Of a DNA stretch of 64,000 nt, positions 16,319 to 45,060 are shown piece after piece. Position 1 is the stretch's first letter, and the number at the start of each line of letters is the position of its first letter. The DNA comes from Natronolimnobius baerhuensis. Its GTDB lineage: Archaea > Halobacteriota > Halobacteria > Halobacteriales > Natrialbaceae. The stretch covers positions 5,955 through 69,954 of the forward strand of contig NZ_MWPH01000006.1 in the NCBI RefSeq assembly GCF_002177135.1, written 5' to 3'. The position numbers and the translations under genes are program-made. The notes beneath the pieces were generated by a model, which ran no database searches, was not told where the DNA came from, and worked only from the letters and a program-made list of their open reading frames with translations.

Positions 16319-16346
16319 CATCCCACCAGAGACAGTGTGCACGTAC

Positions 16347-23269: not shown

Positions 23270-23282
23270 CGAAAGTATAAAT
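23270..23282 (+). promoter_or_regulatory. BRE/TATA promoter 'cgaaagtataaat' for kinase 3 (leaderless)
   Basis: 28 bp upstream of ATG 23310. Context 'tcatcgaaagtataaa' is conserved with 16301-16318. Confidence 0.55.
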
Positions 23283-23309
23283 AGATCCGTACTTCCAATT
23301 ATCCTGTAT

Positions 23310-30085: not shown

Positions 30086-30317
30086 CGATTACCACCCATG
30101 TTTACAAGTCAACCCATTAATAACTACGGAATCTCCAGCAGACGTTCGCCGATGATGGAATCCCAGTCGCGCTACTCTGCCACATCGGCACTGTGGTGAT
30201 TGTCGTTGCAACCGCCACAATTGGCCCACCAGAGTCACGGACTCCAAAATGCGTTGCTGTTCAAACAAGCACCCGGTCGCGCCCGTTCTAACGTGATCGA
30301 GTGGTCTCACGGTCTTC

Positions 30318-31112
30318 TCACCCACTCCGTTCGTGCAGTCGCCGGATGCGCGTTGCAAGTTCACGCACGCGTTTCTGGCGATCCTCAGCAAGGGAGTTGT
30401 CCGCGGGTACAATTTCGAGTTGCTCGACGACCCCATCGACCTCCTCATAGAGTTCATCGTAGGCGGCATCAGAGACTGGATTAGCCGCCAGAAAGTCGCG
30501 CAGTTCTGTTGCTCGCTGGTGGCAGGCTTCCGGTGATTCTCCGGCAGCGGCCTCGAGATGCTCGGCTAGCGAGACTCCGAGGTAGCCAACGGCGTTTCCA
30601 ACGTCGTCGGTCTCCGTTTCATCAGTGCCCGAACCAGTACCTGCACTACCAGCACTATTTTCGATAGTAACATCCTGTAATCGCTGACGTGCACGTCGTC
30701 GCTCGTCTTCGTACGTGGCATTTCCAGCGATTTCAGCGAGCGTCTGGCCGATACGCTCTTGCTCGGTTGCCTTGATCTCAGGATACAATCCCCGAAGCGT
30801 ATCGATGGCGTCGAGTCGTTCGCTCGTATTAGTTCCGTCCTCGGCAAGCGTACAGAAGAGCGGAACAACGACCGACGCAGCAACGGTTGGATCCCGATCG
30901 AAAAGCGACTGCAGCGTCTTGCGTGCGAGTTCCCGCTCAGCGCGTCCCGTCGAGTCGGTCACTGTCGTTCGCAGCGTCTCGAGGATGCGGCGTCGCTCGC
31001 GCTCGTCAGCCGTCGGATACAGCGTCGCGAGCGATTCGATTGCCTCCTGTCGGTCCTGCGAATACGGTGATTCGAGGGCCGTCTCTCGGTGGGTATCGAT
31101 TGCTTCCTGCAT
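30318..31112 (-). CDS. HEAT/PBS-lyase-like repeat protein
   Basis: Repeating helix-pair units of ~30 aa ('AIESLATLYP', 'ILETLRTTVTD', 'AIDTLRGLYPE'). ATGA overlap with the upstream gene at 31112. Confidence 0.6.
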   Translation of the reverse strand: MQEAIDTHRETALESPYSQDRQEAIESLATLYPTADERERRRILETLRTTVTDSTGRAERELARKTLQSLFDRDPTVAASVVVPLFCTLAEDGTNTSERLDAIDTLRGLYPEIKATEQERIGQTLAEIAGNATYEDERRRARQRLQDVTIENSAGSAGTGSGTDETETDDVGNAVGYLGVSLAEHLEAAAGESPEACHQRATELRDFLAANPVSDAAYDELYEEVDGVVEQLEIVPADNSLAEDRQKRVRELATRIRRLHERSG

Positions 31113-32890
31113 CAGATGTTCTCCCCGCAGTTCGTACAGAAATCGTTCTCGGCCGGTACCGCCGTCTCACAGCTGGGACAGACGACATCCGTCTCGGAGG
31201 TGGTGCCGCTGCCGCTATTGCTACCACCGCCGTCACCACCCTGGACAATGGTGGTATCGCCGCCGCTGCTGCCACCTGCGTCCGGAATAATAACATTATC
31301 TGACGTGTCCTCTGCAGCCGCGCGGCCAGTCTCGCCCATGTTATCCATGGCCGACTCAGTCGTCTCCTGCATCCGATCCATCGAGTCGCCCATCATCTCT
31401 TTCATCTCCTCACGGAATTCCTTCTGGTCATCGACGCGCTGGCGTTCTTTCTCGGCACTGTTTGCCTCCTGGCGGGCCTTCGCGAGTTCGTCGCTATCTT
31501 GGGCACCCAGTGCTTCGAGTTGGGCGGGCGAGAGATTCCCGGCCTTTTCCATCTCAGCTAACTCCGCAACTGACTCATCAACGCCATCCATGCTCGCGAG
31601 CGTACCAAGGTCGACGTCGTCGCGGGCTTCCAGTTGCTCCTTCTCGACTTCGACCTCGTGGCGCTCCTTTTCCATCTCGAGGTCTTGCTCGCGTTGCTCG
31701 CGGTCGAGTTTCTGTTGGTCTTTCTTCGACTTGACGTCGATCAGATCTTCGATTTCGGTGATGTCCTGCTCGTGTTCAAGGTCGCGGCGGTCGACTTCGT
31801 TCTCCTTGCGCGTGGTCTTGGCGTGTTCTTCGTGTTCGACTTGCTCGCGCTCGGCTGTATGTCGGTGCCGGCGCTGCATGTCGTCTTTCTCGTGGTCGTA
31901 CTCGAGATCCTGGGTCTCAATCTGGTGGTCAGCGGATTGTTTCGTGGTTTCGCGCCGGACCCGCTGTTTCTCGTCGTGGACCGTATCGCTGGTGTCACGC
32001 TCGCGTTCGCGACGGTCGAGTTCCGCGCGGCGGTCCTCAAGGTCTTCCGTCTCGGCACGGATCTCAACGTCTTTCTTCCCCTCGCGAATCTCGTCTCGGT
32101 CATCCTCATACTCAAACGACCGTAGGTCGACCAGCGCCAGTCCGTTGCGCTCGAAAATCGCCTGACACTGCTGAGCGACATCCGATTGCAGCGTTGCCGT
32201 CAGTTCGCGATTTCCGTACAATTCCTCATGCTCGTATGAAGAAAGCGTCGCCGCCAACTCCCCCCGAACGGCGTCGCCGAGCAACCGCTCAAGCGTATCA
32301 GTTGTAACCGCATCCCGATCCGTGACCATGCTGGTGAAGAACTGCTCGGTATCCTCGAGAGTGAAGACGAGTTCGACGGTCACATCGACGGGATACTCCG
32401 ACGCCGTCCGGACGCCCTCAATCGGTAGGGTCAAGACCGTGTTTCCATCTGGAACTAACACGACGGATCGATCTTGGCCAGTGCGGAAATCGACGATCTT
32501 CTGCCCGAGTGAGTCAAGCGTGTGGTTCCCTGGCCCGATCTCTTCGGTCACCGAACCGTCCTCGAGCAGGAGTGCCCGCGTTCCCTCTTCGATGCTGATC
32601 TCCTCTTTCTGACGCAGTCGGTTTAGGAAACCGCCAGATTGTAGCGCCGCACCGTCTACTCGTCGAGCCAGTTCCGTTGGCCGCAACTGGATTGGACCTG
32701 ACTCAGAATCGTTTGTCGATTTGTTATCGGACCGTGCGTCGAGGGACTCACCACAGCTCGGACAGAACGACCCACTTGCCGAAACGCTGTCACCGCAACT
32801 CGGGCAACTCTCGCTGACCGAACAGCCACAGTCGCGGCAGAAATTTGCCGCATCGGGGAGTTCGGTCCCACAGTCGGGACAGATCGTCAT
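31112..32890 (-). CDS. flotillin-like protein: N-terminal Zn-ribbons, SPFH/band-7 domain, ~270-aa charged coiled coil, C-terminal Zn-ribbon
   Basis: 'CPDCG...CRDCG...CPSCG...CPSCG' N-terminal. 'VVLVPDGNTVLTLPIEGVRTASEYPVDVTVELVF...TDTLERLLGDAVRGELAATL...LALVDLRSFEYED' matches the SPFH core. E/R/D/K-rich heptads follow. C-terminal 'CPSCE...CTNCG'. Confidence 0.7.
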   Translation of the reverse strand: MTICPDCGTELPDAANFCRDCGCSVSESCPSCGDSVSASGSFCPSCGESLDARSDNKSTNDSESGPIQLRPTELARRVDGAALQSGGFLNRLRQKEEISIEEGTRALLLEDGSVTEEIGPGNHTLDSLGQKIVDFRTGQDRSVVLVPDGNTVLTLPIEGVRTASEYPVDVTVELVFTLEDTEQFFTSMVTDRDAVTTDTLERLLGDAVRGELAATLSSYEHEELYGNRELTATLQSDVAQQCQAIFERNGLALVDLRSFEYEDDRDEIREGKKDVEIRAETEDLEDRRAELDRRERERDTSDTVHDEKQRVRRETTKQSADHQIETQDLEYDHEKDDMQRRHRHTAEREQVEHEEHAKTTRKENEVDRRDLEHEQDITEIEDLIDVKSKKDQQKLDREQREQDLEMEKERHEVEVEKEQLEARDDVDLGTLASMDGVDESVAELAEMEKAGNLSPAQLEALGAQDSDELAKARQEANSAEKERQRVDDQKEFREEMKEMMGDSMDRMQETTESAMDNMGETGRAAAEDTSDNVIIPDAGGSSGGDTTIVQGGDGGGSNSGSGTTSETDVVCPSCETAVPAENDFCTNCGENI

Positions 32891-33104
32891 CGTGCGACCT
32901 CCTCTCCCGCACTCGAGTCAGTTGTTGCGTCCGAGATTCCCGTTGCATCTGCGTTTGATAGCGGAGTCACACAGTCTCGACTCTGTGTATTTCTCGTTCG
33001 GCTGCCGGTTCCCCCCTGTTTAGTCGTCGAAATACGTGTGTACTTCATCGATTGTATGTAATCTGTTGTGAAAGACATTTCAATATTTGGGCATCAGTTA
33101 GCGC

Positions 33105-34307
33105 TTATTCATCCCAATCAGCGAGACTCGAGTCAACTGACTCGACTGCCGCTGTAAGGTGGTGCTGGGTTACTGGCTGGATCTCCGACTCATCGCGGGC
33201 CTCCTTGAGCGCGTCTCTAGCGGCCGTCGTCGCGACGAGCTCGAGGTCGCTCGCGGCGTAGCCCTCGGTTAGGCCTACGATTTCGTCCCAGTCAATCGTC
33301 TCAGTGAGGACCGGCCGATCACGGAGATGAACGCGCAAGATGGCTTCGCGTGCGGTCTCGTCCGGTGGCGGTACCTCAATTCGCTCGTCGAACCGGCCAG
33401 AGCGCTTGATAGCGTCATCGACAGCCTCCAGCAGATTCGTCGCCGCAAAAACAACGACGTCTTCGCCCTGGACATCTGAGAGTTCGGTCAGTAATTGATT
33501 GACCATCTGCTGTTGGCTTTGGGTCGTCTGTGCGCCGCCAGTTCGCTGACCAGCAATCGCATCGATTTCGTCGATGAAAACCAAACATGGCTGGTTCTCG
33601 CGGGCAACGGTGAACAACTCGGCGACGTTGTCTGCCGCTTCTCCGACTAAGGAACTTGACAGGTCTGACGGCGTCACCTCAATGAAATTGTAGCCGAGTT
33701 TACCAGCAAGTGCCTGTGTAATGTAGGTCTTGCCCGTCCCCGGCGGCCCGTACAACAACACGCCGTTGACGACGCCGAGTCCGTATTCCTCGTAGAGGTC
33801 GGGCCGCTCGAGTGGGTCGACAATGGTGTCGATTACGGTTTGTTTCAAGTCAGTCATCCCGCCGACATCATCAAAATCCAACTCAGGTGGATCCTTCAGA
33901 TATGCCTTCGCGTCGACCTCTTTGTTCTCATCGCCGTTGCCGGTCCCACCTGGTGGGCTGGCGTTTGCAGTTCCACCTGGTTCAGGTCCGCCCGATTGAG
34001 TTCCGGACCGGTCATCAGAGAACTCCGCGGTAGTCTCACTCTCCCCATCAACGACACTCACCTCACCCGATGCAATTGCCTCGAGTGTGTCGGCAGCCTC
34101 ATCGAGGTTCTTTGCAAGTGATCGCCGTTTCTCAGCGAGTTTCTCGGCCGACTCAAGGTCAGCGATCTGATCGACAATCTCGGCAGTTTTACGGTAGTGT
34201 TCGGCAGCCTTGGCGGGTTCTTTCCGTTCACGGAATTTCTCTGCGAGTTGGCGGTGGCGCTCGTAGTCGTCCTCAAGGATTTCTTTGTGTGCCCCGTCTT
34301 CTAACAT
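33105..34307 (-). CDS. Vps4/CdvC-like AAA+ ATPase (MIT-like N-terminal helical domain, disordered linker, single classical AAA domain)
   Basis: Walker A 'GPPGTGKT'. Walker B 'LVFIDEIDAI'. SRH 'ATNLLEAVDDAIKRSGRFDERIEVPPPD'. The N-terminal 85 aa form a three-helix pattern with an A/Y/E periodicity reminiscent of MIT. Confidence 0.8.
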   Translation of the reverse strand: MLEDGAHKEILEDDYERHRQLAEKFRERKEPAKAAEHYRKTAEIVDQIADLESAEKLAEKRRSLAKNLDEAADTLEAIASGEVSVVDGESETTAEFSDDRSGTQSGGPEPGGTANASPPGGTGNGDENKEVDAKAYLKDPPELDFDDVGGMTDLKQTVIDTIVDPLERPDLYEEYGLGVVNGVLLYGPPGTGKTYITQALAGKLGYNFIEVTPSDLSSSLVGEAADNVAELFTVARENQPCLVFIDEIDAIAGQRTGGAQTTQSQQQMVNQLLTELSDVQGEDVVVFAATNLLEAVDDAIKRSGRFDERIEVPPPDETAREAILRVHLRDRPVLTETIDWDEIVGLTEGYAASDLELVATTAARDALKEARDESEIQPVTQHHLTAAVESVDSSLADWDE

Positions 34308-34402
34308 TGATTGCTTCCCTCCGAACCGTCTCCTGTCGATTCCACCATTTCTACGCCCCCACGAATTCAGTAATTCCCATCGCTCTCATCTGTCTCACTT
34401 GC

Positions 34403-35083
34403 TTAGATGTCGAACTCCTGTTCGTCGATTTCGACTTCCTCGAGGTCGAGGTCATCCTCGATTGCAGCGTCATCGCTGGTGTCAGCGGAGACTTCGGCTT
34501 CCATCTCGATGTCGACTTGCTCTTCTGAGATTTCGGAGGCAGCCATCTCTTGCATCAACTGCTCTTCTTCGCTGACGTCCATTGCGATGTCGTCTTCCAT
34601 GATGGGGATATCCAGTGCCTCCTGAATCTCTTCCATGTCCTCCATCTCGATGCCGAACGCAGCCATCCGCTCCATGATCTCGCTTTGGATCTCTTGAGCA
34701 TCAGCGTCATCCATCGCATTATCGAGCGCGATGTCGTCCTCGTTTTGTACTTCCATGATCTCGCGCATTCCCTGAATAGAAAGGATAGTACCGAGTTTGA
34801 CGCTGTTTGCGCGATACTTCTTTTTCTTGATCGCATACTTTTTCTTCTCAAATTTGGCTTTCTGTGCGTACTTTTTACGCTTGAGATCACTCACCTCCGC
34901 ACCTTCTTTGAGGAGTTTCTTGTATGTCCGACTATGTTGATCCATCTCATTCTCGAGTTTTTTCAGCTTGTGCTCGAGTTTCGTGATGTCTTTTCGGATG
35001 TCGGTATGACTGTAGACATCCTCGTCGAGGAGCGTCTGTCCTGTGCCGCCGAATCGGTCTTGAACCCAATTTCGAAGTTCCAT
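34403..35083 (-). CDS. Snf7/ESCRT-III-like (or PspA/Vipp1 superfamily) coiled-coil protein
   Basis: Basic N-terminal helical hairpin ('LKRKKYAQKAKFEKKKYAIKKKKY' resembles CHMP4 'LKRKKRYEKQLAQ'). Strongly acidic C-terminal half ('DIALDNAMDDADAQEIQSEIMERM' resembles CHMP4 'DIDKVDELMQDIADQQELAEEIS'). Adjacent to the Vps4-like ATPase. Confidence 0.55.
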   Translation of the reverse strand: MELRNWVQDRFGGTGQTLLDEDVYSHTDIRKDITKLEHKLKKLENEMDQHSRTYKKLLKEGAEVSDLKRKKYAQKAKFEKKKYAIKKKKYRANSVKLGTILSIQGMREIMEVQNEDDIALDNAMDDADAQEIQSEIMERMAAFGIEMEDMEEIQEALDIPIMEDDIAMDVSEEEQLMQEMAASEISEEQVDIEMEAEVSADTSDDAAIEDDLDLEEVEIDEQEFDI

Positions 35084-35414
35084 GAATATCGTCTTATGTC
35101 GTCGCGAATATTATCATTCGCATACCTGTTTAGTGGTCGCCACGTCCTTCTCTCTCGCCGGTTGCGTGGTCCGGTGCACACCGAATCGATCTACCCGGCC
35201 GTTGACCCAGTTGGCCACCATCAGTCCATATTCGCTGCAACGGGAAGACCTACCACTCAGAATGAAACGCCGGTATCGACGTCTTACAGCCTCGAATCGG
35301 GCACGTTCCTCGATTTGAGCAGTAGACAATCTGGTGGACATTCTCGTTTGACGACCCGTATTGACACATGTCCCTCCCTCCGACTTAAACCTTTGTACAT
35401 TTCGTAATATCTGC

Positions 35415-35537
35415 TGAGTCTCCATAATGGAGTGTGTATGAGACTCAACAAAATCCCCTTATGTGTTGTAACACGCGCTATTGGGACGGTATTGAGTTAC
35501 AACCCTCTAGTGACAGGATGAGTCTCCAATATGGAAA
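35415..35537. promoter_or_regulatory. two copies of palindromic motif GAGTCTCCA(TA/AT)ATGGA in divergent intergenic region
   Basis: 35415-35432 'tgagtctccataatggag' (with flanking inverted 'gagactca' at 35440-35447) and 35518-35537 'gatgagtctccaatatggaa'. The core TCCAnnnnTGGA dyad is a candidate operator. Confidence 0.4.
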
Positions 35538-35704
35538 AAAATATGGTGCTACAAGATGGTAGTAGGTGTAGAGGATGAGCGCAACAACGAATCGACGACC
35601 AGATGACCCTCCCTCCGTTCCGTCAACAAACCGATTCGGGACGCGTCGTTCGCGGGCACAACCGCGTGAGAAGACCCGCCAAGACCGTTCAGTCACTACG
35701 ACCG

Positions 35705-36253
35705 ATGTCTAACACTGACCCATCGAGCGACGAGACGTCCACCGACACGGAGTATCTGTTCGTCGTCGACTACGAGGACGACGCCGAGCGAAAGCGCATC
35801 GAGTATCTCTTCAATAACTGGGACGACGGCGAAATCGCAAAACCAAGCGGGCTGGTTCGTGTCGGTCAATCGGTATCCCACGACGAACTGTACCAAGATC
35901 TCGTCGCGAAGGTACCCGAAGAGCAAGTCCAGTCGTATCGTCTCGAACCGGTCGAGACAGACGTCGCCCCGGAGACGCTCACCGTTGAACAATCGATTGA
36001 TGCACCAGCAGATGCAGTCGAAACGTTCGTCGAATACATATTCTCGAAAAGAAAAGCAGTCCTCCAGTCGGCGCCACATAATGAGTACGAGGTCTACACA
36101 AAAAAAGGACGTGCGGACGTAACGTACCGACTGGACGCAGACGATGAATCAACCGACGTAACTGTCACGATCACCGGCCACGCTCCCGCACCCGGCTTCC
36201 TCGCCAACTTCTTCGAGACAGAACTCAAGGCATACGCGGACAGTCAATCCTAA
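35705..36253 (+). CDS. hypothetical acidic protein
   Basis: 182 aa from ATG 35705 (the track ORF starts at 35603). No recognised motifs. Co-directional with the next gene, 14-bp gap. Confidence 0.5.
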   Translation: MSNTDPSSDETSTDTEYLFVVDYEDDAERKRIEYLFNNWDDGEIAKPSGLVRVGQSVSHDELYQDLVAKVPEEQVQSYRLEPVETDVAPETLTVEQSIDAPADAVETFVEYIFSKRKAVLQSAPHNEYEVYTKKGRADVTYRLDADDESTDVTVTITGHAPAPGFLANFFETELKAYADSQS

Positions 36254-36267
36254 CCAACACTCCACTC

Positions 36268-38268
36268 ATGAACTGTGCACGACGATTTCAGGATCTTGTT
36301 CGGGACCGAGACGTTGTTCTCGAGGAAGATCTGGCAGCGCTGAAACGCCAAAGTGAACGAGGACGTATCGAGCGGTACAATACGATCAAATCCGATGAGG
36401 CGACGTTCCAGTCGGCATTTACTGGCGACTGCCGAGAGTTTCTGACGCAGTCCGAGCGCAACCGCGCCCGCGGAGAATTCCGCCTTGCACGGTTGCTCAT
36501 TGCAGCCAGTTTCTACGACGATGATGAGAACCAATTCCCGCCGTCGATGGCCGACGACTTCGCGAACGCTGCCCTCGAGGCAGTCGTGGACTTTGAACGG
36601 TTCAAGCGCTTCGACGCGCTCTCGACGAACCAGATCGAAGAGCACATCCGGCGGATGGACGGCGAAGTGTACGAACTTGTTGTCGAGTACACATCGACGC
36701 AGCTAGCGACTGTCGAAGAGTTGCTCGAAGAGCCCGATGTCCAGCAGGACCTGATCGAGCGACTGCTTACACGCTACGAAGAGCGTCGCGAGAAAATTCG
36801 GCAAGGCTTTTTCACCTACGTCGAGACTCACGGTCTCGAGCACATGGTCGCCGAAATCGAGGCGGCCGTCGAGGCCGTCGCCAACGCCTCTGACACACGA
36901 GAAACGATCCACGAGCAACGCCAGGATGGCCCAGGGGACACATCATTGCGTCTCGACGGCAACCTGCGGCGTCGCACGCGAAAACTGGAGTCAGAATTGG
37001 GAGCTGCCGAAGCCGGTCTCGACGGTCAAAGCGACATCGACCACCTCCGTAAGCAGGTTGCTAACCTCACCGACACGCAGCAAACGGCGGTGACAGAACT
37101 CGAGGACCGCATCGACAAGGCGAGTGACCTCAAAGATCGCATCGACGCAGAGATTGAACGCCTCCAACAGACGCACGGTGATGTCGCCGACGCTAATCGC
37201 AAGGAGGTCGCCGACGCGACAGCCGACCTCATCGAGACCGAACTCGAGAATCTCGAAGCCGAGCGTGATGATCTTCTGACGGAGATTGATCACCTCAAGC
37301 GCGAGCGTGAGTTGCTTGAAGCGACTCGTAGTCGTCTGGACGAACGCCAAGGAACACTTACAGAGCCAATCGATAGTGATGTCGAAGCCGCGCTTGGACC
37401 CAACGTGGAGACCGGACTGGACGGCGACGATGTTGTTACCGCATCGGTTGCGTGTCTGCAGGAACTGGACTACCTCGGTCGCTTCGATATCTCGATGCGG
37501 GATGCCACGAGCATCACAACTGACGCGTCCGGCACCGAGTTTGAGGTTCCTGATAATTACTGGGACGACCGGAGCGAGCGGCGCAACGAACGGACACGAC
37601 TGGCAGATCTGCTCGAGGATGGCGACCCAACCGCCGTCGAGCAGTACCCCGTCAACCGGAGCGCGCGCTACGAGATCACCAACTCTCAGTACTTCGGTTT
37701 CGCCCGCGAAACAGAGATGATACTCGAAGCGCGAGTCTGTGCACATCTCATGGCGTACGCGACCACCGGGTTCGACGCGGCGCCGGCAGATCTCGACGAT
37801 GTGCTGTCCGTCCTCAACGACGTGATTTACGAAGCAGAGCAGCGGGACATCACGTATCTGCTCGGAATTGCATCCCCGACTGGCTGGACTGAGCGCGTTA
37901 TTGAACAACTGCAGGGAGAGGGGCAAAACGTGACCCGAACCCGAATGAGTCAAAACGTCGGTCTCTGTCTCGTCGATCTCCAAGACGGCTCCGTACTGTA
38001 CGACAAATCAGATTCCGTTGTCGCGGAGAACGCTCACCTCTTCGAACCACCACTTGAGAGCGAGCGTGTCACAAACTGTGTCTCAACCCTCCGCACCGAG
38101 TACGTTGACGATCTCGGCTGTGAGACAGTACTGCTGTGTGACATCGTTGAACACCACGACTATGACCCACACATTGTCGACCGAGCGTTTGACAAGCTAG
38201 AGCGTGATGGAACCGGCCACCAATTCTACGTCGAGGAGCTCGGATTGGCGTTAGCCGTCGGAACCTAG
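36268..38268 (+). CDS. hypothetical large acidic coiled-coil protein with globular C-terminal domain
   Basis: 666 aa. Central ~250-aa E/R/D-rich heptad region ('LEAERDDLLTEIDHLKRERELLEATRSRLDERQ'). No enzymatic motifs recognised. Confidence 0.55.
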   Translation: MNCARRFQDLVRDRDVVLEEDLAALKRQSERGRIERYNTIKSDEATFQSAFTGDCREFLTQSERNRARGEFRLARLLIAASFYDDDENQFPPSMADDFANAALEAVVDFERFKRFDALSTNQIEEHIRRMDGEVYELVVEYTSTQLATVEELLEEPDVQQDLIERLLTRYEERREKIRQGFFTYVETHGLEHMVAEIEAAVEAVANASDTRETIHEQRQDGPGDTSLRLDGNLRRRTRKLESELGAAEAGLDGQSDIDHLRKQVANLTDTQQTAVTELEDRIDKASDLKDRIDAEIERLQQTHGDVADANRKEVADATADLIETELENLEAERDDLLTEIDHLKRERELLEATRSRLDERQGTLTEPIDSDVEAALGPNVETGLDGDDVVTASVACLQELDYLGRFDISMRDATSITTDASGTEFEVPDNYWDDRSERRNERTRLADLLEDGDPTAVEQYPVNRSARYEITNSQYFGFARETEMILEARVCAHLMAYATTGFDAAPADLDDVLSVLNDVIYEAEQRDITYLLGIASPTGWTERVIEQLQGEGQNVTRTRMSQNVGLCLVDLQDGSVLYDKSDSVVAENAHLFEPPLESERVTNCVSTLRTEYVDDLGCETVLLCDIVEHHDYDPHIVDRAFDKLERDGTGHQFYVEELGLALAVGT

Positions 38269-38573
38269 CAGTAGTTCTGAATTTGAGCGCTATATTTCAG
38301 TCGCATAGACTAACTCGTCAGCGGAGACCACGAAATACACTCGGGAGATCAGCACCGAGCAAAAGATGCGGACGGTCACCGAAGCTGCTGCTGAGTATAT
38401 GGAACTCGCGATACCGCACATCGACTTTGGTCGTGATCCGGACGCACCCAACTACCAATATCCTCCAGAGTCGTTTTACCGCCTCTTAGCTCACGAAACG
38501 AGGTAGTTCAGTTGGAAGCAGCCACACCGTCAAGGAACGGTTGTATACATGAAGGTGGAACCACCTTCTGATT

Positions 38574-39635
38574 TTATGGCCCTTCCTCCCAGACAAAACT
38601 CATCATTTCTACGTCCGCTTTGTCAAAAAATTCTGTTTGCAATTTTTCAGCATTTTCAGCCAACCTTTCCATTTCCTCCCCTTCCTCTAAGAACCGATAT
38701 GAAACATGGTCTACTAACCAATTATATAGTTCATCTATCGCATTATCATAGTCTACGATTGCTTCACTAATGATAACGTTATTCTCCCAACTATCTACGT
38801 ATCCTTTTGCTCTTGTTGACCATTCATTGCTCGATAGCACATACTCTTTATCTAATGCAAAAGAGTACCGTTCCTCCTCAGACATATGTATAGTGAAATC
38901 TATCGGCTCATGGTGAACAATGTAATTTCGAAGACTAGTGAAAAACGGTTCATACAAATCAAGGTTACATTTTTTCACTTTTACATCATACAACTCGCTT
39001 ATCAGCGGATCCGATGAACAGTACTCATCTAACTCAGAAACTATCCTCTCAGTGTAGTTTTCTGCATTTTTCATAGATCCAATATAATTGGACAATAGGC
39101 GCATGAACTCTTTTGAGGATTCATTGACTTGCTTCCAATATATTTCCTCAGTTGTCTCACATCTGGCAATCAAGTGAATGAGTTCAGTATAGTTTCTGTG
39201 ACAAATATGGTTTATCGCATTCATCAATGTCAGGATGCAATTTCCAATATAATAGCCAGGAGAACTCTCCCATTCTCGTGTTGCTTCCATTGCTGCGTGA
39301 AATACTTCTTTTTCCTCTTCAGAATCAATACTGTCAGAATATGTTTTTAGTAGACCAAGTGACTCTGGAGGCATGATAGTCACTGTTAACATCTCAATTA
39401 CAAAATATCTTTCAGCCCTCTCTGCCTTTTCCCCTACCACCCCTTGGGGCCACACGTCGGCAAAACACGTTTCTCGAATATGCACACGAACTCCTGTTTT
39501 CTGTGTGCAGATCCAGATACTGCCTCTCGAGTCAATCTGAGGGCCTTCCATTGGGGACTTCAGATAAAATAGACCTCGAGAGAACAATGCAAACCACGAG
39601 AAGAGCCAGTCTGTGATCACAACCCCGCCAAACAA
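38574..39635 (-). CDS. hypothetical protein (AT-rich island; W/Y/C-rich, no TM)
   Basis: 353-aa ORF in a ~38% GC segment. Compositionally foreign. Confidence 0.45.
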   Translation of the reverse strand: MFGGVVITDWLFSWFALFSRGLFYLKSPMEGPQIDSRGSIWICTQKTGVRVHIRETCFADVWPQGVVGEKAERAERYFVIEMLTVTIMPPESLGLLKTYSDSIDSEEEKEVFHAAMEATREWESSPGYYIGNCILTLMNAINHICHRNYTELIHLIARCETTEEIYWKQVNESSKEFMRLLSNYIGSMKNAENYTERIVSELDEYCSSDPLISELYDVKVKKCNLDLYEPFFTSLRNYIVHHEPIDFTIHMSEEERYSFALDKEYVLSSNEWSTRAKGYVDSWENNVIISEAIVDYDNAIDELYNWLVDHVSYRFLEEGEEMERLAENAEKLQTEFFDKADVEMMSFVWEEGP

Positions 39636-39674
39636 GTCTGCTACACCAACTCTATTTACTTAACCAACAAAATT

Positions 39675-40034
39675 ATGCTCTCGAGAATTGTGTTGGTTAA
39701 CAGGGAGACCATGTCCGACGAACCACCGGAACCGCCAGCAGAACTCCCAAACGATTTGGTCGACACAATTGCTGACTACTCAACCGATCAACTTCGTCAC
39801 ATAGCTCGCTACGGCGAAGCACTTGCTGAATACAAGGAACGTGAGGAACGGCTTGCTGAGAAATCAGATGACGATGACATCGAAAAATCCGCTGCCGATC
39901 TACCAGACGACGTCCCGGCGAAAGCGACACCGACGATCAAGGAAATCAACGACAATCGGTACTACTACTGGCAGTGGAGAGATGGGGACCAGATTAAGTC
40001 CAAATACAAAGGGCCAGTCAATCCTGACGAGTAG
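39675..40034 (+). CDS. hypothetical acidic protein (a partial copy of it lies at 42060-42170)
   Basis: 119 aa. 'LRHIARYGEALAEYKEREERLAEK' is duplicated in degraded form inside the ORB cluster. Confidence 0.45.
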   Translation: MLSRIVLVNRETMSDEPPEPPAELPNDLVDTIADYSTDQLRHIARYGEALAEYKEREERLAEKSDDDDIEKSAADLPDDVPAKATPTIKEINDNRYYYWQWRDGDQIKSKYKGPVNPDE

Positions 40035-40351
40035 ACTGGCGGGGAAGCGACCATGGGTTGACACCCCAGTGCGTCCAGTGTCTTTACCCACACTCCGTGT
40101 GCAAAGTGAATTGATTCAGGACTCGAGAAGCGTGATACCAGAGATCAATACAACACGGTCCGACAACAGAGTGGAATGCGGCGATCAGTGTTTAGGCCGC
40201 GGGGCAGTTTCGTACCGAGAGATATCATCACGCTTCTCAATCCGGTCGTAGGTTTCCTGAAGTGTCTCTTTGGCACGGAGGAGTTTGTGCTCCTCAAGGA
40301 ATTGCCGACCACTCTCACTAAAGGCCAATGGAACATTCCTATTAGAGTGGG

Positions 40352-40945
40352 TTATGTATCGGTGTGCAATTCCATCAAAATAGATAGACTTGTGACGTCT
40401 TCGTCCTGTTGTCCATATCTCATTAAACTCTCCATCTGGTATTCTCCAGTAGGAAAGCACCCATCAGCAGATGGGTCGTCAGCGATAATATATTCATTAG
40501 AAATTGTTTCGCCTGGTTCAAGATCCGGTGTTTGAACTCCTTCTAGTGTCCAGTTAATATCTTCATTAGATGCACATTCTGGAGCAGAGTCAACAGATAG
40601 ACTATCTGCAGCAGCAAGAGAATAAATAATTATGCCAGCTGAACCATGATTGGAACTTGGCATTTTATAAAATGGTATTCGTGCCCCCACTACGGATTGA
40701 GAGTCGTTTGTTATACTTATCTCGAAAGTCGCACTATGTTGGGAATTTATCTCATTTTCTAATGTGACAACATCAAGTGTATAGGGAGAATCATTATCGT
40801 CCTGCTCGAGTTCGTGAATTGATAATTTCCGCTCAAAGTCATCGGTCATTTGATTACCTAATCCTAAGCAGCCTGCTGTTGAAGTGAAAGCTATTAAACC
40901 ACTTGTGGCAAGTATATTTCTTCTATTCATTAAGATAATTGTCAT
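40352..40945 (-). CDS. hypothetical secreted protein / lipoprotein (Tat-like signal plus lipobox-like AGC)
   Basis: 'MNRRNILATSGLIAFTSTAGCLG' N-terminus. AT-rich. Confidence 0.5.
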   Translation of the reverse strand: MTIILMNRRNILATSGLIAFTSTAGCLGLGNQMTDDFERKLSIHELEQDDNDSPYTLDVVTLENEINSQHSATFEISITNDSQSVVGARIPFYKMPSSNHGSAGIIIYSLAAADSLSVDSAPECASNEDINWTLEGVQTPDLEPGETISNEYIIADDPSADGCFPTGEYQMESLMRYGQQDEDVTSLSILMELHTDT

Positions 40946-41732
40946 ACCTGATTGAATATATACTTTTGGTACCCCCGTTACACTGGATTTAATCAGGAGA
41001 ATTGCAGAGTACTTCTGTCACCTCATCGAGCACGACCTCGTCGAGATCGCTACCCCTGACACTGTTAACTCCGATATCGACCGATTCAGAGATGTGATGG
41101 TTGCTAATGGAACCGTCCTACGGTTGCACGCCCAACTCATACTCCACGAACTCAGCGAATATCTCGGCTACTCGCCGCCACCGCTCCTCTACCGACTGAC
41201 CGAAGATGCACAGAAGATCCACCAGCAACAGCCAGTGTTACAAGAGACGCTCGCTACCGCTACGCAACCGAGGTGTGAGTCTTAGCTAAAGAGGAATAAT
41301 GCAAATCTCAGGTCACTCGAGTTAAAATCTCAAAGATGCTGCAGACACCTCTATCGATTTGTTTTTCGCGAGTACGTTGCTAGCGCCATCAATCCTTGGC
41401 ACCCCAGTACGTCCAGTGTTGATCAACCAGGATACCAAACACCCCCCGCCATGTCCAGTGTCTCGAGAAACAATTTCACTACACCCCACCATGTCCAATG
41501 TCTTTGTCTTTCCAAGGCTGCTGCAGACACCCCTATCGATTTGTTCGAAACAGGGCAAACCATCACGCATACACTCCACCCGTCGAGTGTAAACCGGCGA
41601 ATATTCAGAGTACAGACCGTCTCTGTGACGGTCAAAAAAGAGGTTTGCTTGAATCCGGTGAGCTGACAATCTAAGAAGAGCAGATGATAGAAAGTTAGTA
41701 CAGAGGATCTCGCGGAAGACGTGGCCATCTCG

Positions 41733-41750
41733 AGATGATGATGATGATGA
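41733..41750. repeat. (GAT)6 microsatellite
   Basis: 'gatgatgatgatgatgat' read directly. Confidence 0.9.
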
Positions 41751-42059
41751 TGGTTCCCACGGTTATATAAATACCTCTGTAACCGACACTCAATGCACCT
41801 ACTGGAGAAATCCCTCGTTCAAAGTCCTATACAATCCCTGCTGTAAGGCAGCTATCTACGCACAATTTCGGGAATTTACACTCGACAGGTGGGGTGTTCC
41901 TTGAACTCAGTGTACATGTTAGTCGATACACTCGACGCTTGGGGTCCCAGATGCCTGAGTTTGGAATTCTGTTTTTATTTTAATTCTATTTGGTTAATAG
42001 GGAGTCTATAGTCGGTGTATTTGAGGTCTTACACTCGACAACCGGGGTGATATGAGTGA

Positions 42060-42170
42060 CTCTATGCGCATCCTATGTCAGATTTCTTTGAAGACCTACT
42101 TCGACACGCAACTCGCTACGGCGAAACGCTTGCTGAGTACAAAGAGTGTTAGGAGCGCCTCGCGAACGAT
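42060..42170 (+). pseudogene. degraded partial copy of gene 39675-40034
   Basis: 'LRHATRYGETLAEYKEC*ERLAN' versus 'LRHIARYGEALAEYKEREERLAE'. About 80% nucleotide identity over ~85 bp. Confidence 0.35.
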
Positions 42171-42435
42171 ACCTAGTTTAATCTATATAATTATATTAAC
42201 TTCTGTTCTTCTACCACCTTGAGGATGTTGCGGACACCTCTATCGATTTGTTTTTCGCAAGTACGTTGCTAGTGTCGTCAATGATTTAGCACCCACCACG
42301 GACAGTGTCTTTGTTTCCCTAATGACGCCAGATTCTGTTGTTTTACCCCTCAAAGAGACTGGAGACACCTCTATCGATTTGTTCTACACAGTCCAGACCA
42401 CTACGCACACACCCCTATCGATTTGTTTTTCGCAA

Positions 42436-43770
42436 TTACTGAGATTGCTTACGGAGTTGAGCTTGAACCACCGCTTGGAGTTCGTCATCATGCACATCAT
42501 CAAACCGAGAGTCTTCACGAAGCGTATCCATGATTGTTTCTGGACTTTCAGCAAACGAAAACTCGAGATAGCTCCCTGAGTGTGGACCTTGGCTTTTGCG
42601 TTCGGATTCCACGAGAGAGTACGTCGTCAACTCCTTCATCTTGTTGACATAGGTCTCTTGATGATACTGATCTACATTGAGCGTGTCTGTGAGATATCGA
42701 TAGACAGTGTAGCCATTCGGGCTTTTTGCAGTCCCGTTGCCAGCTTGTTGAGCTACCGCCGCTGTTGCCAGTAAACAGAGTTTTTTCTGAGTACTGATTC
42801 CACGCGTGACCTCCAGTACGCGGTTCTTCTCGACTTTATCTTGGGCTTTTCGTACGTGAGTTTCACTTACCTGATCTGCAGCCTCACGTTCAGCAATGGA
42901 CCCTGCTGTCCGCATCAAGTCGATTGCCTTTCGAGCATCACCGTGAGTTTGGGCAGCGAATGCAGCTGCAAGTGGGATCACATCTTCACTGAGTGCATCC
43001 TCATAGAACGCATCCGTCCGATGGTAGAGAATTTCCCGAAGCTGGTTCGCGTCATAATCATTGAAATGGACATCCTCAGGAGTAAACGAACTCACTGCAC
43101 GGCTCCCGACATTGGACATCATTGTGGCATCGTTTGTAATCGCTGTCACTGAAACGTTTGCCCTCGTATCGTCAGTACTTCCAGCCCGAGAGAGTTGGTA
43201 CAACAATCGCGAAAACGCAGGTTCATCGATATCCCGACGGCCAACCAGCATATCGAGTTCATCGAGAATAACAACTACAGTGTCGTAGTGTTCATCAATC
43301 AACCGATACAGCTCACGCCATTTCTTTTTTGTTGGGATACCGTGCTCAGGCACTTCGACCGTAACGCCAGCATCAGTAGCAACCTTCCGCGCGAGTTCAT
43401 AAACTGCAGAACCAAGCGTACCGACATTTTGGCAGTTCATGTGGATAACGCCAAAGCGAATGTCTCGAGTCTCGCATAGCTCAAGGATGTTTTTACAGAC
43501 TGCGTTGATGATCAACGATTTTCCTGTACCTGATGGACCATAGAGGAAGAGATTAGGTGGTCGTTCACCGTTGATAGCAACGCGAAGATGCTGAGTGATC
43601 TCTGTAAGCTGTGAATCTCGCCCAACAATGCGGCCTTCATCAACAATCTCGTTAGGCTCCAAGAGAGGCCGGTTCCGGATAAGACTCGCAGATTCCTCCT
43701 GATCGAGAATAAGATCCTTAATAGAACCCGTCTCACCAGGCGGGGTCCCTGAATCTGGATCTTTTGACAT
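42436..43770 (-). CDS. orc1: Orc1/Cdc6 replication initiator (AAA+ plus winged helix)
   Basis: Walker A 'GPSGTGKS', Walker B 'VVVILDELDML', sensor 'HGDARKAIDLMRTAG', C-terminal WH domain. Flanked on both sides by ORB-like repeats. Confidence 0.9.
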   Translation of the reverse strand: MSKDPDSGTPPGETGSIKDLILDQEESASLIRNRPLLEPNEIVDEGRIVGRDSQLTEITQHLRVAINGERPPNLFLYGPSGTGKSLIINAVCKNILELCETRDIRFGVIHMNCQNVGTLGSAVYELARKVATDAGVTVEVPEHGIPTKKKWRELYRLIDEHYDTVVVILDELDMLVGRRDIDEPAFSRLLYQLSRAGSTDDTRANVSVTAITNDATMMSNVGSRAVSSFTPEDVHFNDYDANQLREILYHRTDAFYEDALSEDVIPLAAAFAAQTHGDARKAIDLMRTAGSIAEREAADQVSETHVRKAQDKVEKNRVLEVTRGISTQKKLCLLATAAVAQQAGNGTAKSPNGYTVYRYLTDTLNVDQYHQETYVNKMKELTTYSLVESERKSQGPHSGSYLEFSFAESPETIMDTLREDSRFDDVHDDELQAVVQAQLRKQSQ

Positions 43771-43908
43771 ACAAAGGCCCTCACAGTCAATTGACTAAAA
43801 GGTTCCCCTATCGATATGTATTTTCTCAGTAGAGGTGTTAGGAAGGGGGTTTGTGGGTTTTTCAGTTATAGGTTCGGAAACCTACAACGACTTGTTACAG
43901 GACAGTCT

Positions 43909-44270
43909 CACACCCCTATCGATTTGTTCGAGCCGGAAGAGGGGTGGAGTCCTAAAAGCAAGAAGAGTTGACCAAGATAGCGGAAGACGAGTAGATGCAG
44001 TTGATGCATTTGTTATTCTAGGTTTCTAGTCTAGAACTAGAATAGAACACACTCCTATCGATTTGTTCAACTTGACACCAGCAACAATGTTTCACCTCTG
44101 ATCTACTCGATATGATCGGTCGGCGAACCATTATTAATCTATAATCTAATCCCTCTAACACCACATTTCCTCGTTGAAAGAGCGTCTGCTGATAAATATT
44201 GAATTGAATCCCCAGTCCTACAGCTCCCAGTCTATTTTGAGCAAAAACAAATCGATAGGGGTGTCTGTGT
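43909..44270. repeat. origin-recognition-box-like repeats, cluster B (3 copies; one inverted) upstream of orc1
   Basis: 43909-43930 'cacacccctatcgatttgttcg' (+), 44048-44068 'cacactcctatcgatttgttc' (+), 44244-44270 'aaacaaatcgataggggtgtctgtg' (inverted). Confidence 0.6.
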
Positions 44271-44541
44271 ACTACACATCAAAATACTCATCAATCCATT
44301 GGTTGTGCTGTTCCTCTGCACCGACTAATTCGATTACCCATCTCGAAATCGATCAGATTTCACTTGGAAAAATAACGGACTGACTTGATGCGCGGCAGCA
44401 GACTCGAGGCACTAGGTGCCATCTTATTAATCCGGAGATCCGTGGAAAAATCGGTGGAGAATATAAACAGCATGAACTAGAATATCTGGTTGAGAGTGTA
44501 GGAGCACAGTTATCAGTGCATTCGGGAAATTGACATGACCT

Positions 44542-44612
44542 CACTACTTCCGCTGTTAGCCATGAATAACTGTAGCACTCATTGCATCCTTAGTGTAACA
44601 GCGGAAGTAGTG
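44542..44612. repeat. 17-bp perfect inverted repeat (cactacttccgctgtta / taacagcggaagtagtg) separated by 37 nt
   Basis: Read directly. Could form a long hairpin in RNA or a cruciform in DNA. Confidence 0.8.
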
Positions 44613-45060
44613 GGGTGGGGGTGCCTCAGGTTCGTGGAATGATGTCTTCTCGCTTTTTCCTGCCAAGTGTATTTTGACACCCTCTGTTCCCTTCAGAATG
44701 CCTTTAACCAACAACATGGACCAGAAGCTCGGCGTTGGTTAACAACAAGACCATATCCTACGAGTCATCGGAACCGTCAGCAGATACGCCAACAGTAAAA
44801 ATAATCAGAACTCTAACAAGTAATGTCTGGCACAGATATCCGATCAATGGCTGTATCAATTGCTTCTGTAAGGTTGAGGATGGTAGGCCATCGATCAGGA
44901 TCTCAGACGTCCGTCTTCAACGTAGTTGAAACGACAGCTTTCATTGTCGTAACTCGCTATGAGTGTAATAACTGACCTCTACTGTCCTGACTACTGATGT
45001 TCATTGTGATAAATATTAGAAATACATACGTTTAACTATCTCTGATAGTGGCGTCACATT

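What the first reader, a model, noticed from the sequence alone, without database searches (positions are those of the whole stretch)
40050..44400. orc1/cdc6-associated replication origin with a non-canonical ORB-like repeat family
Eight copies of 'CAC(A)C(C/T)CCTATCGATTTGTT' flank orc1 (42436-43770). Five are downstream and three upstream. One upstream copy is inverted. They are interspersed with AT-rich stretches (41700-42320, 43800-44250) and a (GAT)6 microsatellite. The CACACCCC part resembles the G-string of haloarchaeal ORBs. The core TATCGATTTGTT differs from the usual TTCCAnnGGAAAC dyad. This suggests an Orc1 paralog with distinct ORB specificity. A frameshifted second orc1 remnant (3015-3757) and a degraded duplicate of gene 39675 inside the repeat field indicate past rearrangements at origins.
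Basis: partly seen in the sequence, partly recalled or inferred. Interest (0 to 1): 0.65.

Follow-up and report, generated by a model that had tools for sequence, protein, structure and literature searches.

The report
Plasmid-type haloarchaeal orc1 replication origin module
The repeats are real and are almost certainly the binding sites of the neighbouring Orc1 replication initiator, forming a self-contained origin-plus-initiator cassette that recurs in more than 80 salt-loving archaea, so it is a new member of a known kind of origin.

Summary
Observation confirmed. Eight near-perfect copies and one degenerate copy of (C/G)ACAC(C/T)(C/T)CTATCGATTTGTT flank an intact orc1/cdc6 gene (42436-43770, minus strand). 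None occur elsewhere in the 64 kb window, where 0.33 are expected by chance.

The motif travels with orthologous orc1 genes in all 85 related loci fetched, with one conserved layout. Inverted copies face a lower-GC spacer upstream. A degenerate copy abuts the orc1 TATA-like box. Three to four direct copies follow the stop codon.

One core base tracks the Orc1 clade. It is T in 321/326 copies next to Orc1 at least 76% identical to the window protein, and G in 303/313 copies next to Orc1 under 70% identical. The G-type was already listed as a predicted origin beside Hlac_3539 (Wu et al. 2012). This T-type is therefore a sister subfamily: real and well supported, but not a new kind.

On a complete 94.5 kb plasmid, all copies surround its only orc1.

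There is a second, canonical-looking ORB set (40061-42312) with no cognate orc gene in the window, an IS4 fragment (41002-41302), and a linked DUF6788 gene. Origin firing remains untested.

The parts
42436..43770 (-). orc1/cdc6 initiator gene, 444 aa, intact. Walker A GPSGTGKS, Walker B ILDELD and GDARKAIDL are all present.
   Evidence: Pfam Cdc6_lid 8.6e-25, Cdc6_C 1e-13 and AAA. TIGR02928 at 405 bits. Aligns to the DNA-bound Orc1 structures 2V1U and 2QBY_A. 80-91% identical orthologs occur in many haloarchaeal genera.
44246..44264 (-). ORB-A copy, the outermost upstream copy. It is inverted relative to all the others, and its TTGTT end faces the spacer.
   Evidence: I1-I12. It corresponds to the '+' upstream copies in loci oriented on orc1.
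44068..44245 (.). Candidate duplex-unwinding spacer between the inverted ORB-A copies. It is 178 nt with GC 0.41, and a minimum 60-nt window of 0.35.
   Evidence: The equivalent spacer has a median length of 164 nt and GC 0.485 against a locus GC of 0.57. It is lower than the locus GC in 75 of 76 related loci.
44049..44067 (+). ORB-A copy (ACACTCCTATCGATTTGTT), the inner partner of the inverted pair.
43910..43928 (+). ORB-A copy (ACACCCCTATCGATTTGTT), upstream of orc1.
43794..43820 (-). orc1 promoter region. A TTTTAGT TATA-like box lies at -24 to -30 from the ATG. It is directly abutted by a degenerate ORB-A (minus strand ACATATCGATAGGGG). Inferred to be an autoregulatory operator.
   Evidence: AAATCGA(C/T)AGGGGAA plus TTTTAGT is conserved in all 30 distinct T-clade upstream regions, while the flanks vary.
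42409..42427 (+). ORB-A copy immediately after the orc1 stop codon (downstream array, copy 1).
   Evidence: A conserved downstream array of 3-4 direct copies is seen in 40 T-clade loci.
42365..42383 (+). ORB-A copy, downstream array copy 2.
42234..42252 (+). ORB-A copy, downstream array copy 3.
41527..41545 (+). ORB-A copy inside a diverged duplicate (41521-41577) of block 42359-42415.
   Evidence: D3 (57 nt, 81%)
41345..41363 (+). ORB-A copy inside a diverged duplicate (41335-41419) of block 42224-42308.
   Evidence: D5 (85 nt, 80%)
41399..41505 (+). Three direct copies of a second ORB type, B1 (CACCCC-N5-GTCCA(G/A)TGTC), at 41399, 41441 and 41481. Further copies are at 40061-40085, and a degenerate one at 42288-42312.
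   Evidence: D4 and (10 hits against 0.73 expected, 8 of them here). The same type follows a truncated orc in L039.
41571..42049 (.). Second ORB type B2 (CACCCC-N4-GTCGAGTGTAA). One copy at 41571-41593 (+) faces three at 41876, 41926 and 42029 (-). They lie around a 282-nt spacer (GC 0.46) that holds (GAT)6 at 41734-41751. This is origin-like, but no cognate orc gene is present in the window.
   Evidence: (D6, I7, I14). It resembles the H. marismortui cdc6g ORBs printed in the Wu 2012 supplement. tblastn finds no other full orc in the window.
41002..41302 (.). Fragment of an IS4/ISH8-family transposase gene that bounds the repeat field.
   Evidence: Megablast against plasmids gives 84-94% identity to IS4 transposase genes. 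One search gives the L003 match.
39675..40034 (+). DUF6788 small protein gene (probable start Met13 at 39711, 107 aa), a frequent companion of this origin family. A decayed piece lies at 42075-42173 and a 5' remnant at 44734-44790.
   Evidence: precomputed PF20586; P0121 is 100% identical, from Natronolimnobius baerhuensis. Homologs lie within 6 kb of orc1 in 41 of 86 loci. Searches cover the fragments.

Best explanation
This is a complete replicator-initiator cassette of the haloarchaeal orc1/cdc6-adjacent type, sitting in a low-GC, rearranged island.

Shown:
- An intact Orc1/Cdc6 gene is flanked by a repeat (CACC(C/T)CTATCGATTTGTT, G-string at one end). The repeat co-occurs with this Orc1 lineage across more than 80 genomes, in a fixed architecture.
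- One core base co-varies with the Orc1 clade.

Inferred mechanism:
1. ATP-bound Orc1 monomers bind each repeat. The winged helix and wing contact the TATCGATTTGTT core, and the AAA+ initiator-specific motif contacts the G-string side, as in the solved Orc1-ORB complexes.
2. The inverted pair at 44049-44067 and 44246-44264, with TTGTT ends facing inward, brackets a 178-nt AT-rich spacer. There the duplex is opened and MCM is loaded.
3. The weak copy abutting the TATA-like box lets Orc1 repress its own promoter.
4. The direct array just past the stop codon has three conserved copies here, plus two from a local duplication. It acts as an initiator sink that damps firing or sets copy number, like oriC2D of Haloarcula hispanica.

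The cassette is mainly plasmid or megaplasmid borne and moves between genera. Here it lies next to relics of at least one other origin (orphan B-type ORBs), an IS fragment and gene fragments.

Whether it fires in this genome or is dormant cannot be told from sequence.
For: - Repeats are real and confined to the orc1 flanks.
- Orc1 identity is established.
- The motif is present around orc1 in all 85 related loci.
- Of 657 instances, 94% lie within -1300 to +1000 of orc1. Most exceptions are arrays displaced by insertions.
- Clade/base covariation: T in 321/326 against G in 303/313.
- Upstream '+' copies always precede '-' copies. They lie around a spacer whose GC is below the locus GC in 75/76 loci.
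- A promoter-proximal half-ORB plus TATA-like box is conserved in 30/30 distinct T-clade sequences.
- On the complete plasmid NZ_CP100410.1, all 12 copies lie at 85781-88357 around the only orc1 homolog.
- 151 PLSDB plasmids carry relatives at E<=1e-100, 52 of them at 60% identity or more. In two finished plasmids the gene sits at the start of the record.
- The sister motif was already called an origin beside Hlac_3539.
- Downstream ORB arrays were shown experimentally to restrain oriC2 in H. hispanica (PMC3936714).
- Clade-discriminating Orc1 residues within the conserved C-terminal half concentrate in the winged-helix wing, residues 388-401.
- The cumulative G-C skew of the window has its minimum at 43.5-45 kb.
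Against: - No binding, ARS or marker-frequency data exist for this family, in the window organism or any relative found.
- Wu et al. found 2 of 7 predicted H. hispanica origins without ARS activity, so prediction does not equal firing.
- The island carries an IS fragment and pseudogene pieces, consistent with a silent integrated relic.
- The ATCGAT palindrome could also suit a dimeric regulator.
- The wing clustering of clade-specific residues is not significant protein-wide (P=0.19).
- The skew minimum in a 64 kb window may only reflect gene orientation. On the H. marina plasmid the skew minimum is about 8 kb from orc1.
Confidence: 0.8

Rival explanations
1. The cassette is what it looks like, but in this genome it is a dormant or dead relic of an integrated plasmid origin. 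The repeats still match the consensus, but no initiation occurs here.
For: - The 38-45 kb low-GC island has GC 0.46 against about 0.58 in the flanks.
- An IS4 fragment lies at 41002-41302.
- There are DUF6788 pseudogene pieces, a segmental duplication of the downstream array, and orphan B-type ORBs.
- Dormant predicted origins are documented in Haloarcula and Haloferax (PMC3528665, PMC4595724).
Against: - orc1 is full length with intact ATPase motifs.
- The promoter box and all eight ORBs are within 0-1 mismatch of the family consensus.
- The window's cumulative skew turns at this locus.
Confidence: 0.35
2. The repeats are binding sites for a protein other than Orc1. Candidates are the linked DUF6788 protein, or a partition or transcription factor, as in a plasmid centromere or iteron-like operator. 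Orc1 would merely be a neighbour.
For: - The core holds a perfect ATCGAT palindrome.
- A DUF6788 gene lies within 6 kb in 41/86 loci, often directly beside the arrays.
- Direct-repeat arrays next to maintenance genes are typical of centromeres.
Against: - The motif is present in the 45 loci without a nearby DUF6788 gene.
- It carries the halophile G-string at the end that faces away from the spacer, the same polarity as the B2-type ORBs in the window and the Hlac_3539 ORBs.
- Inverted sets bracket an AT-rich spacer.
- The motif variant tracks the Orc1 clade almost perfectly.
Confidence: 0.07
3. The repeats are a dispersed mobile or genome-wide repeat (MITE-like) that happens to be clustered here.
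For: IS debris is nearby, and the cassette is clearly mobile between genera.
Against: - There are zero copies elsewhere in the 64 kb window.
- Only 48 of 657 instances in 1.04 Mb of related loci lie outside the orc1 flanks, and eight of those are an orientation artefact of locus L086.
- There are none outside the orc1 flanks on a complete 94.5 kb plasmid at 1 mismatch or fewer.
- The motif has no match in IMG/VR.
Confidence: 0.02

Closest known systems
Predicted origin adjacent to Hlac_3539 (HLAC_RS17115) on Halorubrum lacusprofundi pHLAC01, listed in Wu et al. 2012 BMC Genomics, Additional file 4
   Same: - The Orc1 is 68% identical over 428 residues.
- The ORB is CACACCCCTCTATCGATGTGTT, with the same G-string, the same TATCGAT core and the same inverted layout around a spacer upstream of orc1.
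- It belongs to the 'G-type' clade of 43 loci analysed here.
   Different: - The core base is G, not T (GATGTGTT against GATTTGTT).
- The G-string sits two bases further from the core.
- The downstream array has the opposite orientation.
- The Orc1 is about 45 residues longer at the N terminus.
- The 68% identity is below the 80% threshold those authors used for one family. The T-type motif is absent from their supplement and from all searchable paper text.
Haloarcula hispanica oriC2-cdc6E with its downstream ORB-rich region oriC2D (Wu et al. 2014 NAR, PMC3936714)
   Same: - ORBs lie on both sides of the initiator gene.
- The origin proper is upstream.
- A separate cluster of cognate ORBs lies directly downstream. 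There it was shown to restrain the origin, probably by titrating the initiator.
   Different: - The Orc family and ORB sequence differ (ACACCACCCTGCAAGTGTT).
- oriC2D has 11 ORBs in 722 bp, against 3-5 here.
- No functional data exist for the present family.
Orc1-ORB complexes of Aeropyrum pernix (PDB 2V1U) and Saccharolobus solfataricus (PDB 2QBY)
   Same: - The window Orc1 aligns end to end with both (E=1e-45 and 1e-42).
- This includes the VP-x-x-G loop region of the initiator-specific motif and the winged-helix wing.
- The binding mode is therefore assumed to be the same.
   Different: - Crenarchaeal ORBs have a TCCA...GGAAA dyad and no halophile G-string.
- The present core, TATCGATTTGTT, is unrelated in sequence.
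H. marismortui cdc6g-adjacent ORBs (CACCCCACCGTGTCGAGTGTTC), the closest printed match for the second repeat family in the window
   Same: The window B2 copies read CACCCCACCTGTCGAGTGTAA. They have the same G-string, a spacer that differs by one base in length, and the same GTCGAGTGT core.
   Different: - No cognate orc gene lies next to them in the window.
- In relatives L039 and L026, B-type ORBs follow truncated orc genes that keep only the lid and winged helix.

Membership tests
Haloarchaeal orc1/cdc6-adjacent ORB-type replication origin (criteria of Norais 2007 and Wu 2012) | [quoted passage not shown] | tested here: met
   444 aa. AAA, Cdc6_lid and Cdc6_C hits. TIGR02928 at 405 bits against a cutoff of 181.
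Haloarchaeal orc1/cdc6-adjacent ORB-type replication origin (criteria of Norais 2007 and Wu 2012) | Several conserved repeats carrying a G-string in the intergenic regions flanking the gene | tested here: met
   Eight copies plus one degenerate, each ending in CAC(A)CC(C/T)C, which reads GGGGTG on the other strand.
Haloarchaeal orc1/cdc6-adjacent ORB-type replication origin (criteria of Norais 2007 and Wu 2012) | Inverted repeats bracketing an AT-rich unwinding region | tested here: met
   44049-44067 (+) and 44246-44264 (-) lie around a 178-nt spacer of GC 0.41. The same holds in 75/76 related loci.
Haloarchaeal orc1/cdc6-adjacent ORB-type replication origin (criteria of Norais 2007 and Wu 2012) | ORB sequence conserved with, and specific to, the Orc family (linkage specificity) | tested here: met
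   All 85 related loci carry the motif. The T or G core base tracks the Orc1 clade.
Haloarchaeal orc1/cdc6-adjacent ORB-type replication origin (criteria of Norais 2007 and Wu 2012) | Autonomous replication of the cloned fragment, or a marker-frequency peak in vivo | not testable with these tools
   No experimental data were found for this family. The only indirect support is that it is the sole orc module on the complete plasmid NZ_CP100410.1.
Haloarchaeal orc1/cdc6-adjacent ORB-type replication origin (criteria of Norais 2007 and Wu 2012) | Sequence-specific binding of the adjacent Orc1 to the repeats | not testable with these tools
   Inferred from covariation and architecture only.
Hlac_3539-type origin family of Wu et al. 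2012 | Orc/Cdc6 at least 80% identical (the authors' family threshold) | tested here: not met
   68% identity over 428 aa. It is a sister subfamily, not the same family by that rule.
Hlac_3539-type origin family of Wu et al. 2012 | ORB CACACCCCTCTATCGATGTGTT | tested here: not met
   The window and all 40 T-clade loci have GATTTGTT (321/326 copies) and a G-string two bases closer. The G-clade has GATGTGTT in 303/313 copies.
oriC1-type canonical ORB (dyad TTCCA..GGAAA plus G-string) | Dyad-symmetric TCCA/GGAA core | tested here: not met
   The core is TATCGATTTGTT. Only the G-string is shared.
Downstream ORB-rich negative-control region (oriC2D of H. hispanica) | Cluster of cognate ORBs directly downstream of the initiator gene, separate from the upstream origin | tested here: met
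   Copies at 42409, 42365 and 42234, plus duplicated copies at 41527 and 41345. Three to four such copies occur in T-clade loci (115 of 116 downstream copies share one orientation).
Downstream ORB-rich negative-control region (oriC2D of H. hispanica) | Deletion raises origin activity or copy number (initiator titration) | not testable with these tools
   Known only for oriC2D (PMC3936714).
Dispersed repeat / MITE | Copies scattered through the replicon irrespective of orc1 | tested here: not met

The most novel reading that the evidence does not exclude
The T-type and G-type cassettes are a natural pair of orthogonal replicator-initiator systems. They would be separated chiefly by one ORB base (GATTTGTT against GATGTGTT), a 2-nt shift of the G-string, and a handful of substitutions in the Orc1 winged-helix wing (388-401) and initiator-specific-motif loop (142-152). 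This discrimination would let two sister replicons coexist in one cell.

Both types do occur together in four genomes: Halorubrum salsamenti Y69, H. halophilum B8, Natrinema zhouii YPL30 plasmids 4 and 2, and Halocatena pleomorpha.

A further untested possibility is that the linked DUF6788 protein is an accessory replication or maintenance factor of this origin family.
Probability: 0.4. Interest if true: 0.5.

Novelty: new member of a known kind. Interest (0 to 1): 0.35.

Why it matters
It adds a large origin-initiator subfamily that I could not find described in the searchable literature. There are about 40 species representatives of the T-type and 43 of the sister G-type among the 85 loci, and many are on plasmids.

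The module has a clean, conserved architecture: an origin, a promoter operator and a downstream array. The near single-base ORB difference between two Orc1 clades that coexist in the same cells makes a compact natural system for two questions. One is how archaeal Orc1 proteins read DNA. The other is how multi-replicon haloarchaea keep origins from cross-talking.

It could also supply new vector replicons for Natrialbaceae.

It does not change the established picture that each haloarchaeal Orc family has its own ORB and that such cassettes move horizontally.

Tried and rejected
- Literature search for the motif as a text string. The T-type core appears in no archaeal paper and not in the Wu 2012 supplement. 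Shorter strings led to the sister motif at Hlac_3539.
- Phage or virus origin. tblastn of Orc1 against 50,697 phage records found nothing. The 18-mer motif has no exact match in IMG/VR.
- Structured RNA. There is no Rfam hit at gathering score anywhere in the window.
- Integrated-element borders. There is no tRNA in the window and no integrase among the neighbouring ORFs. The island limits remain undefined.
- A second full orc gene in the window that could serve the B-type ORBs. None was found by tblastn with two different Orc queries. The 3329-3757 remnant matches neither B-linked truncated orc.
- Natrinema J7 and Haloarcula comparative papers. They gave no sequence that ties an experimentally tested ARS to this family.
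- My own hmmscan of the 119-aa protein found no Pfam family, although precomputed annotations list PF20586/DUF6788 for its homologs. I took the latter as a label only.
- Wing clustering of clade-specific residues. It is significant only within the conserved C-terminal half (P about 0.002), not protein-wide (P=0.19), so it is treated as a lead.

Full report
**1. What is in the sequence**

The ORF at 42436-43770 (minus strand) encodes a 444-aa Orc1/Cdc6.
- It has AAA, Cdc6_lid and Cdc6_C domains.
- It matches TIGR02928 at 405 bits.
- It aligns over its full length to the DNA-bound Orc1 structures 2V1U and 2QBY_A.

A search for CCTATCGATTTGTT with up to 2 mismatches finds 9 sites, all between 41350 and 44259. 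Chance expectation is 0.33, and no shuffle reached 9.
- Eight are near perfect. The full unit is (C/G)ACAC(C/T)(C/T)CTATCGATTTGTT (D1/D2).
- Relative to the gene, five lie downstream (41345, 41527, 42234, 42365, 42409).
- Three lie upstream (43910, 44049, and the inverted 44246).
- A ninth, weaker copy sits at 43805-43820.

(GAT)6 is at 41734-41751.

**2. The motif belongs to this Orc1 lineage**

The protein has 80-91% identical relatives in many genera, including Natronorubrum, Halorubrum, Haladaptatus, Halococcus, Haloarcula and Halobacterium. It also has a second tier of relatives at about 67% identity.

I fetched 85 loci encoding relatives. Every one carries clusters of CTATCGATNTGTT around the gene.

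Of 657 instances in 1.04 Mb, 94% lie within -1300 to +1000 of orc1. Most of the rest are arrays pushed away by insertions.

The layout is fixed:
- Upstream, copies reading toward the gene are followed by copies reading away from it, so the TTGTT ends face each other across a spacer.
- That spacer has a median length of 164 nt. Its GC (median 0.485) is below the locus GC (0.57) in 75 of 76 loci.
- Downstream, 3-4 direct copies start within a few bases of the stop codon.

In the window, the inverted pair is 44049-44067 and 44246-44264. Its spacer (44068-44245) has GC 0.41.

**3. Covariation**
- Next to Orc1 at least 76% identical to the window protein (40 loci), the variable core base is T in 321 of 326 copies.
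- Next to Orc1 under 70% identical (43 loci), it is G in 303 of 313 copies. The G-string also sits two bases further out, and the downstream array is flipped.
- Three Halorussus loci at 70-76% identity have G and a further A substitution.

This near-perfect partition is the strongest available argument that the adjacent Orc1 reads the motif.

Forty-six residues discriminate the two clades. Within the otherwise conserved lid and winged-helix half, 6 of 12 fall in residues 388-401. These align with the wing hairpin of the solved structures. The clustering is significant within that half (P about 0.002) but not protein-wide. Four more discriminating residues (142, 146, 149, 152) lie in the stretch that aligns with the VPFTGLS loop of the initiator-specific motif. 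The assignment of these elements as DNA contacts rests on the published Orc1-ORB structures, which I recall rather than tested.

**4. Not a dispersed element**

The window has no copy outside the orc1 flanks.

The complete 94.5 kb plasmid NZ_CP100410.1 (Haloarcula marina) gives the clearest test.
- All 12 copies with 1 mismatch or fewer lie at 85781-88357.
- They surround the only orc1 homolog (86594-87919) on the replicon.
- That makes this cassette the only recognisable Orc-type replication module of that plasmid.

Other searches agree:
- 151 PLSDB plasmids carry relatives at E<=1e-100, 52 of them at 60% identity or more.
- No phage record has the protein.
- No IMG/VR contig has the motif.

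**5. Conserved promoter operator**

Upstream of the ATG, all 30 distinct T-clade sequences keep AAATCGA(C/T)AGGGGAA immediately followed by a TTTTAGT box at -24 to -30. The surrounding sequence varies.

In the window this region is 43794-43820. A TATA-like box at that distance fits a leaderless or short-leader haloarchaeal transcript. A weak ORB abutting it would let Orc1 repress its own gene. This step is inference.

**6. Downstream array**

In H. hispanica, an ORB-rich region directly downstream of cdc6E restrains oriC2, probably by titrating Cdc6E. The authors noted downstream ORBs at many other predicted origins (PMC3936714). The conserved array here is the same arrangement, and I infer the same role.

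In the window, two of the five downstream copies arise from a diverged duplication:
- 41335-41419 matches 42224-42308.
- 41521-41577 matches 42359-42415 (D5 and D3).

**7.

*A second ORB family.* It reads CACCCC-N4/5-GTC(C/G)AGTGT and occupies 40061-42312. There are 8 sites against 0.73 expected. It has two subtypes.
- B1 (GTCCAGTGTC) forms a direct array at 41399-41505, plus copies at 40061 and 42288.
- B2 (GTCGAGTGTAA) has one copy at 41571 facing three at 41876-42049. They lie across a 282-nt spacer that holds the (GAT)6.

B2 closely matches the ORBs printed for H. marismortui cdc6g.

Only 3 of the 86 loci held at the time of that scan contain B-type sites. In two of them, the sites follow truncated orc genes that keep only the lid and winged helix (L039:7403-8245 and L026:3210-3755). 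L039 is the closest relative of the window cassette (91% Orc1), and there the truncated orc sits right after the T-type downstream array.

The window has no such gene. The B-type cluster is therefore best read as the relic of a neighbouring origin that has lost its initiator. It could still be served in trans by an orc elsewhere in the genome.

*Other features.*
- 41002-41302 is a fragment of an IS4/ISH8 transposase gene.
- Gene 39675-40034 is a DUF6788 protein. It is 100% identical to a Natronolimnobius baerhuensis protein, so that is the likely source organism.
- Homologs of that protein lie within 6 kb of orc1 in 41 of 86 loci, often directly beside the ORB arrays.
- The window also holds a decayed internal piece of it (42075-42173) and a 5' remnant at the syntenic upstream position (44734-44790).
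- The whole 38-45 kb segment has GC 0.46, against about 0.58 in the flanks.
- No tRNA or integrase marks its borders.

**8. Comparison with the literature**

Wu et al. 2012 (PMC3528665) established two points. Most haloarchaeal orc genes have adjacent ORB clusters carrying a G-string, and ORB sequence is specific to the Orc family.

Their Additional file 4 lists, next to Hlac_3539 on pHLAC01, inverted CACACCCCTCTATCGATGTGTT repeats. That Orc is 68% identical to the window protein and falls in my G-type clade.

The T-type motif is absent from that supplement and from all searchable paper text. I found no ARS, marker-frequency or binding data for either subtype.

The window cassette is therefore a new subfamily of a known kind, not a new kind.

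**9. Is it active?**

Points in favour:
- The gene, promoter box and ORBs are intact.
- The cumulative G-C skew of the window falls from 4.5 kb to a minimum at 43.5-45 kb and then rises.

Points against:
- The locus sits in a rearranged island.
- Predicted haloarchaeal origins are often dormant.
- The skew signal in 64 kb can be produced by gene orientation alone.

I put roughly even odds on firing in this genome. I put high confidence (about 0.8-0.85) on the repeats being the cognate Orc1 sites of a bona fide origin cassette.

**10. Verdict**

Novelty is modest. The most interesting open angle is the T/G specificity switch between two Orc1 clades. These coexist in the same genomes in four cases (L022/L050, L031/L074, L042/L056, L040/L079), which suggests orthogonal sister replicons.

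Noticed in passing
window 40061-42312: A second, canonical-looking ORB family (CACCCC-N4/5-GTC(C/G)AGTGT) in two subtypes. One subtype includes an inverted set around a 282-nt spacer. No cognate orc gene is present in the window. In relatives L039 and L026, the same ORB types follow orc genes truncated to the lid and winged helix.
   Followed up: partly
window 41002-41302: A fragment of an IS4/ISH8-family transposase gene, 84-94% identical to copies on many haloarchaeal plasmids. It bounds the repeat field.
   Followed up: partly
window 39675-40034 (also 42075-42173 and 44734-44790); L087/L088 85437-85709: A small DUF6788 protein gene lies within 6 kb of this orc1 family in 41 of 86 loci, often directly beside the ORB arrays. 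The window has one intact copy and two decayed pieces. Its function is unknown. My own hmmscan did not recover the Pfam family that precomputed annotation lists.
   Followed up: partly
window 3329-3757: An ORF encoding only a C-terminal Orc1/Cdc6-like lid and winged-helix piece (GDARQAISLL motif; TIGR02928 E=2e-7, below cutoff). It is unrelated to the truncated orcs next to B-type ORBs in L039 and L026. No ORB cluster was looked for around it.
   Followed up: partly
loci L022/L050, L031/L074, L042/L056, L040/L079: T-type and G-type cassettes occur together in the same genome, and in Natrinema zhouii on two different plasmids. This suggests the two types are compatible.
   Followed up: no
window 38001-45000, and 1-2000, 4001-5000, 16001-17000, 22001-24000: Several low-GC segments (0.38-0.50) sit in a window that otherwise runs at 0.55-0.64. 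The one at 38-45 kb holds the origin cassette. The others were not examined.
   Followed up: no
window 29270-38268: A run of genes with no or only generic Pfam hits lies left of the island. It includes zinc-ribbon proteins, an SPFH/Band 7 plus double-zinc-ribbon protein (31112-32890), an AAA ATPase (33105-34307) and a 666-aa protein with no hit (36268-38268). Their function was not pursued.
   Followed up: no
window 43500-45000: The cumulative G-C skew of the window has its minimum here, next to the predicted unwinding spacer. This is suggestive of an origin, but cannot be separated from gene-orientation effects in 64 kb.
   Followed up: partly
L039 11608-11657: Two extra T-type ORB copies lie 4.3 kb downstream of orc1 in the closest relative, just upstream of a ParA-like gene (12011-12949). 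A possible link between ORB copies and partition genes was not explored.
   Followed up: no
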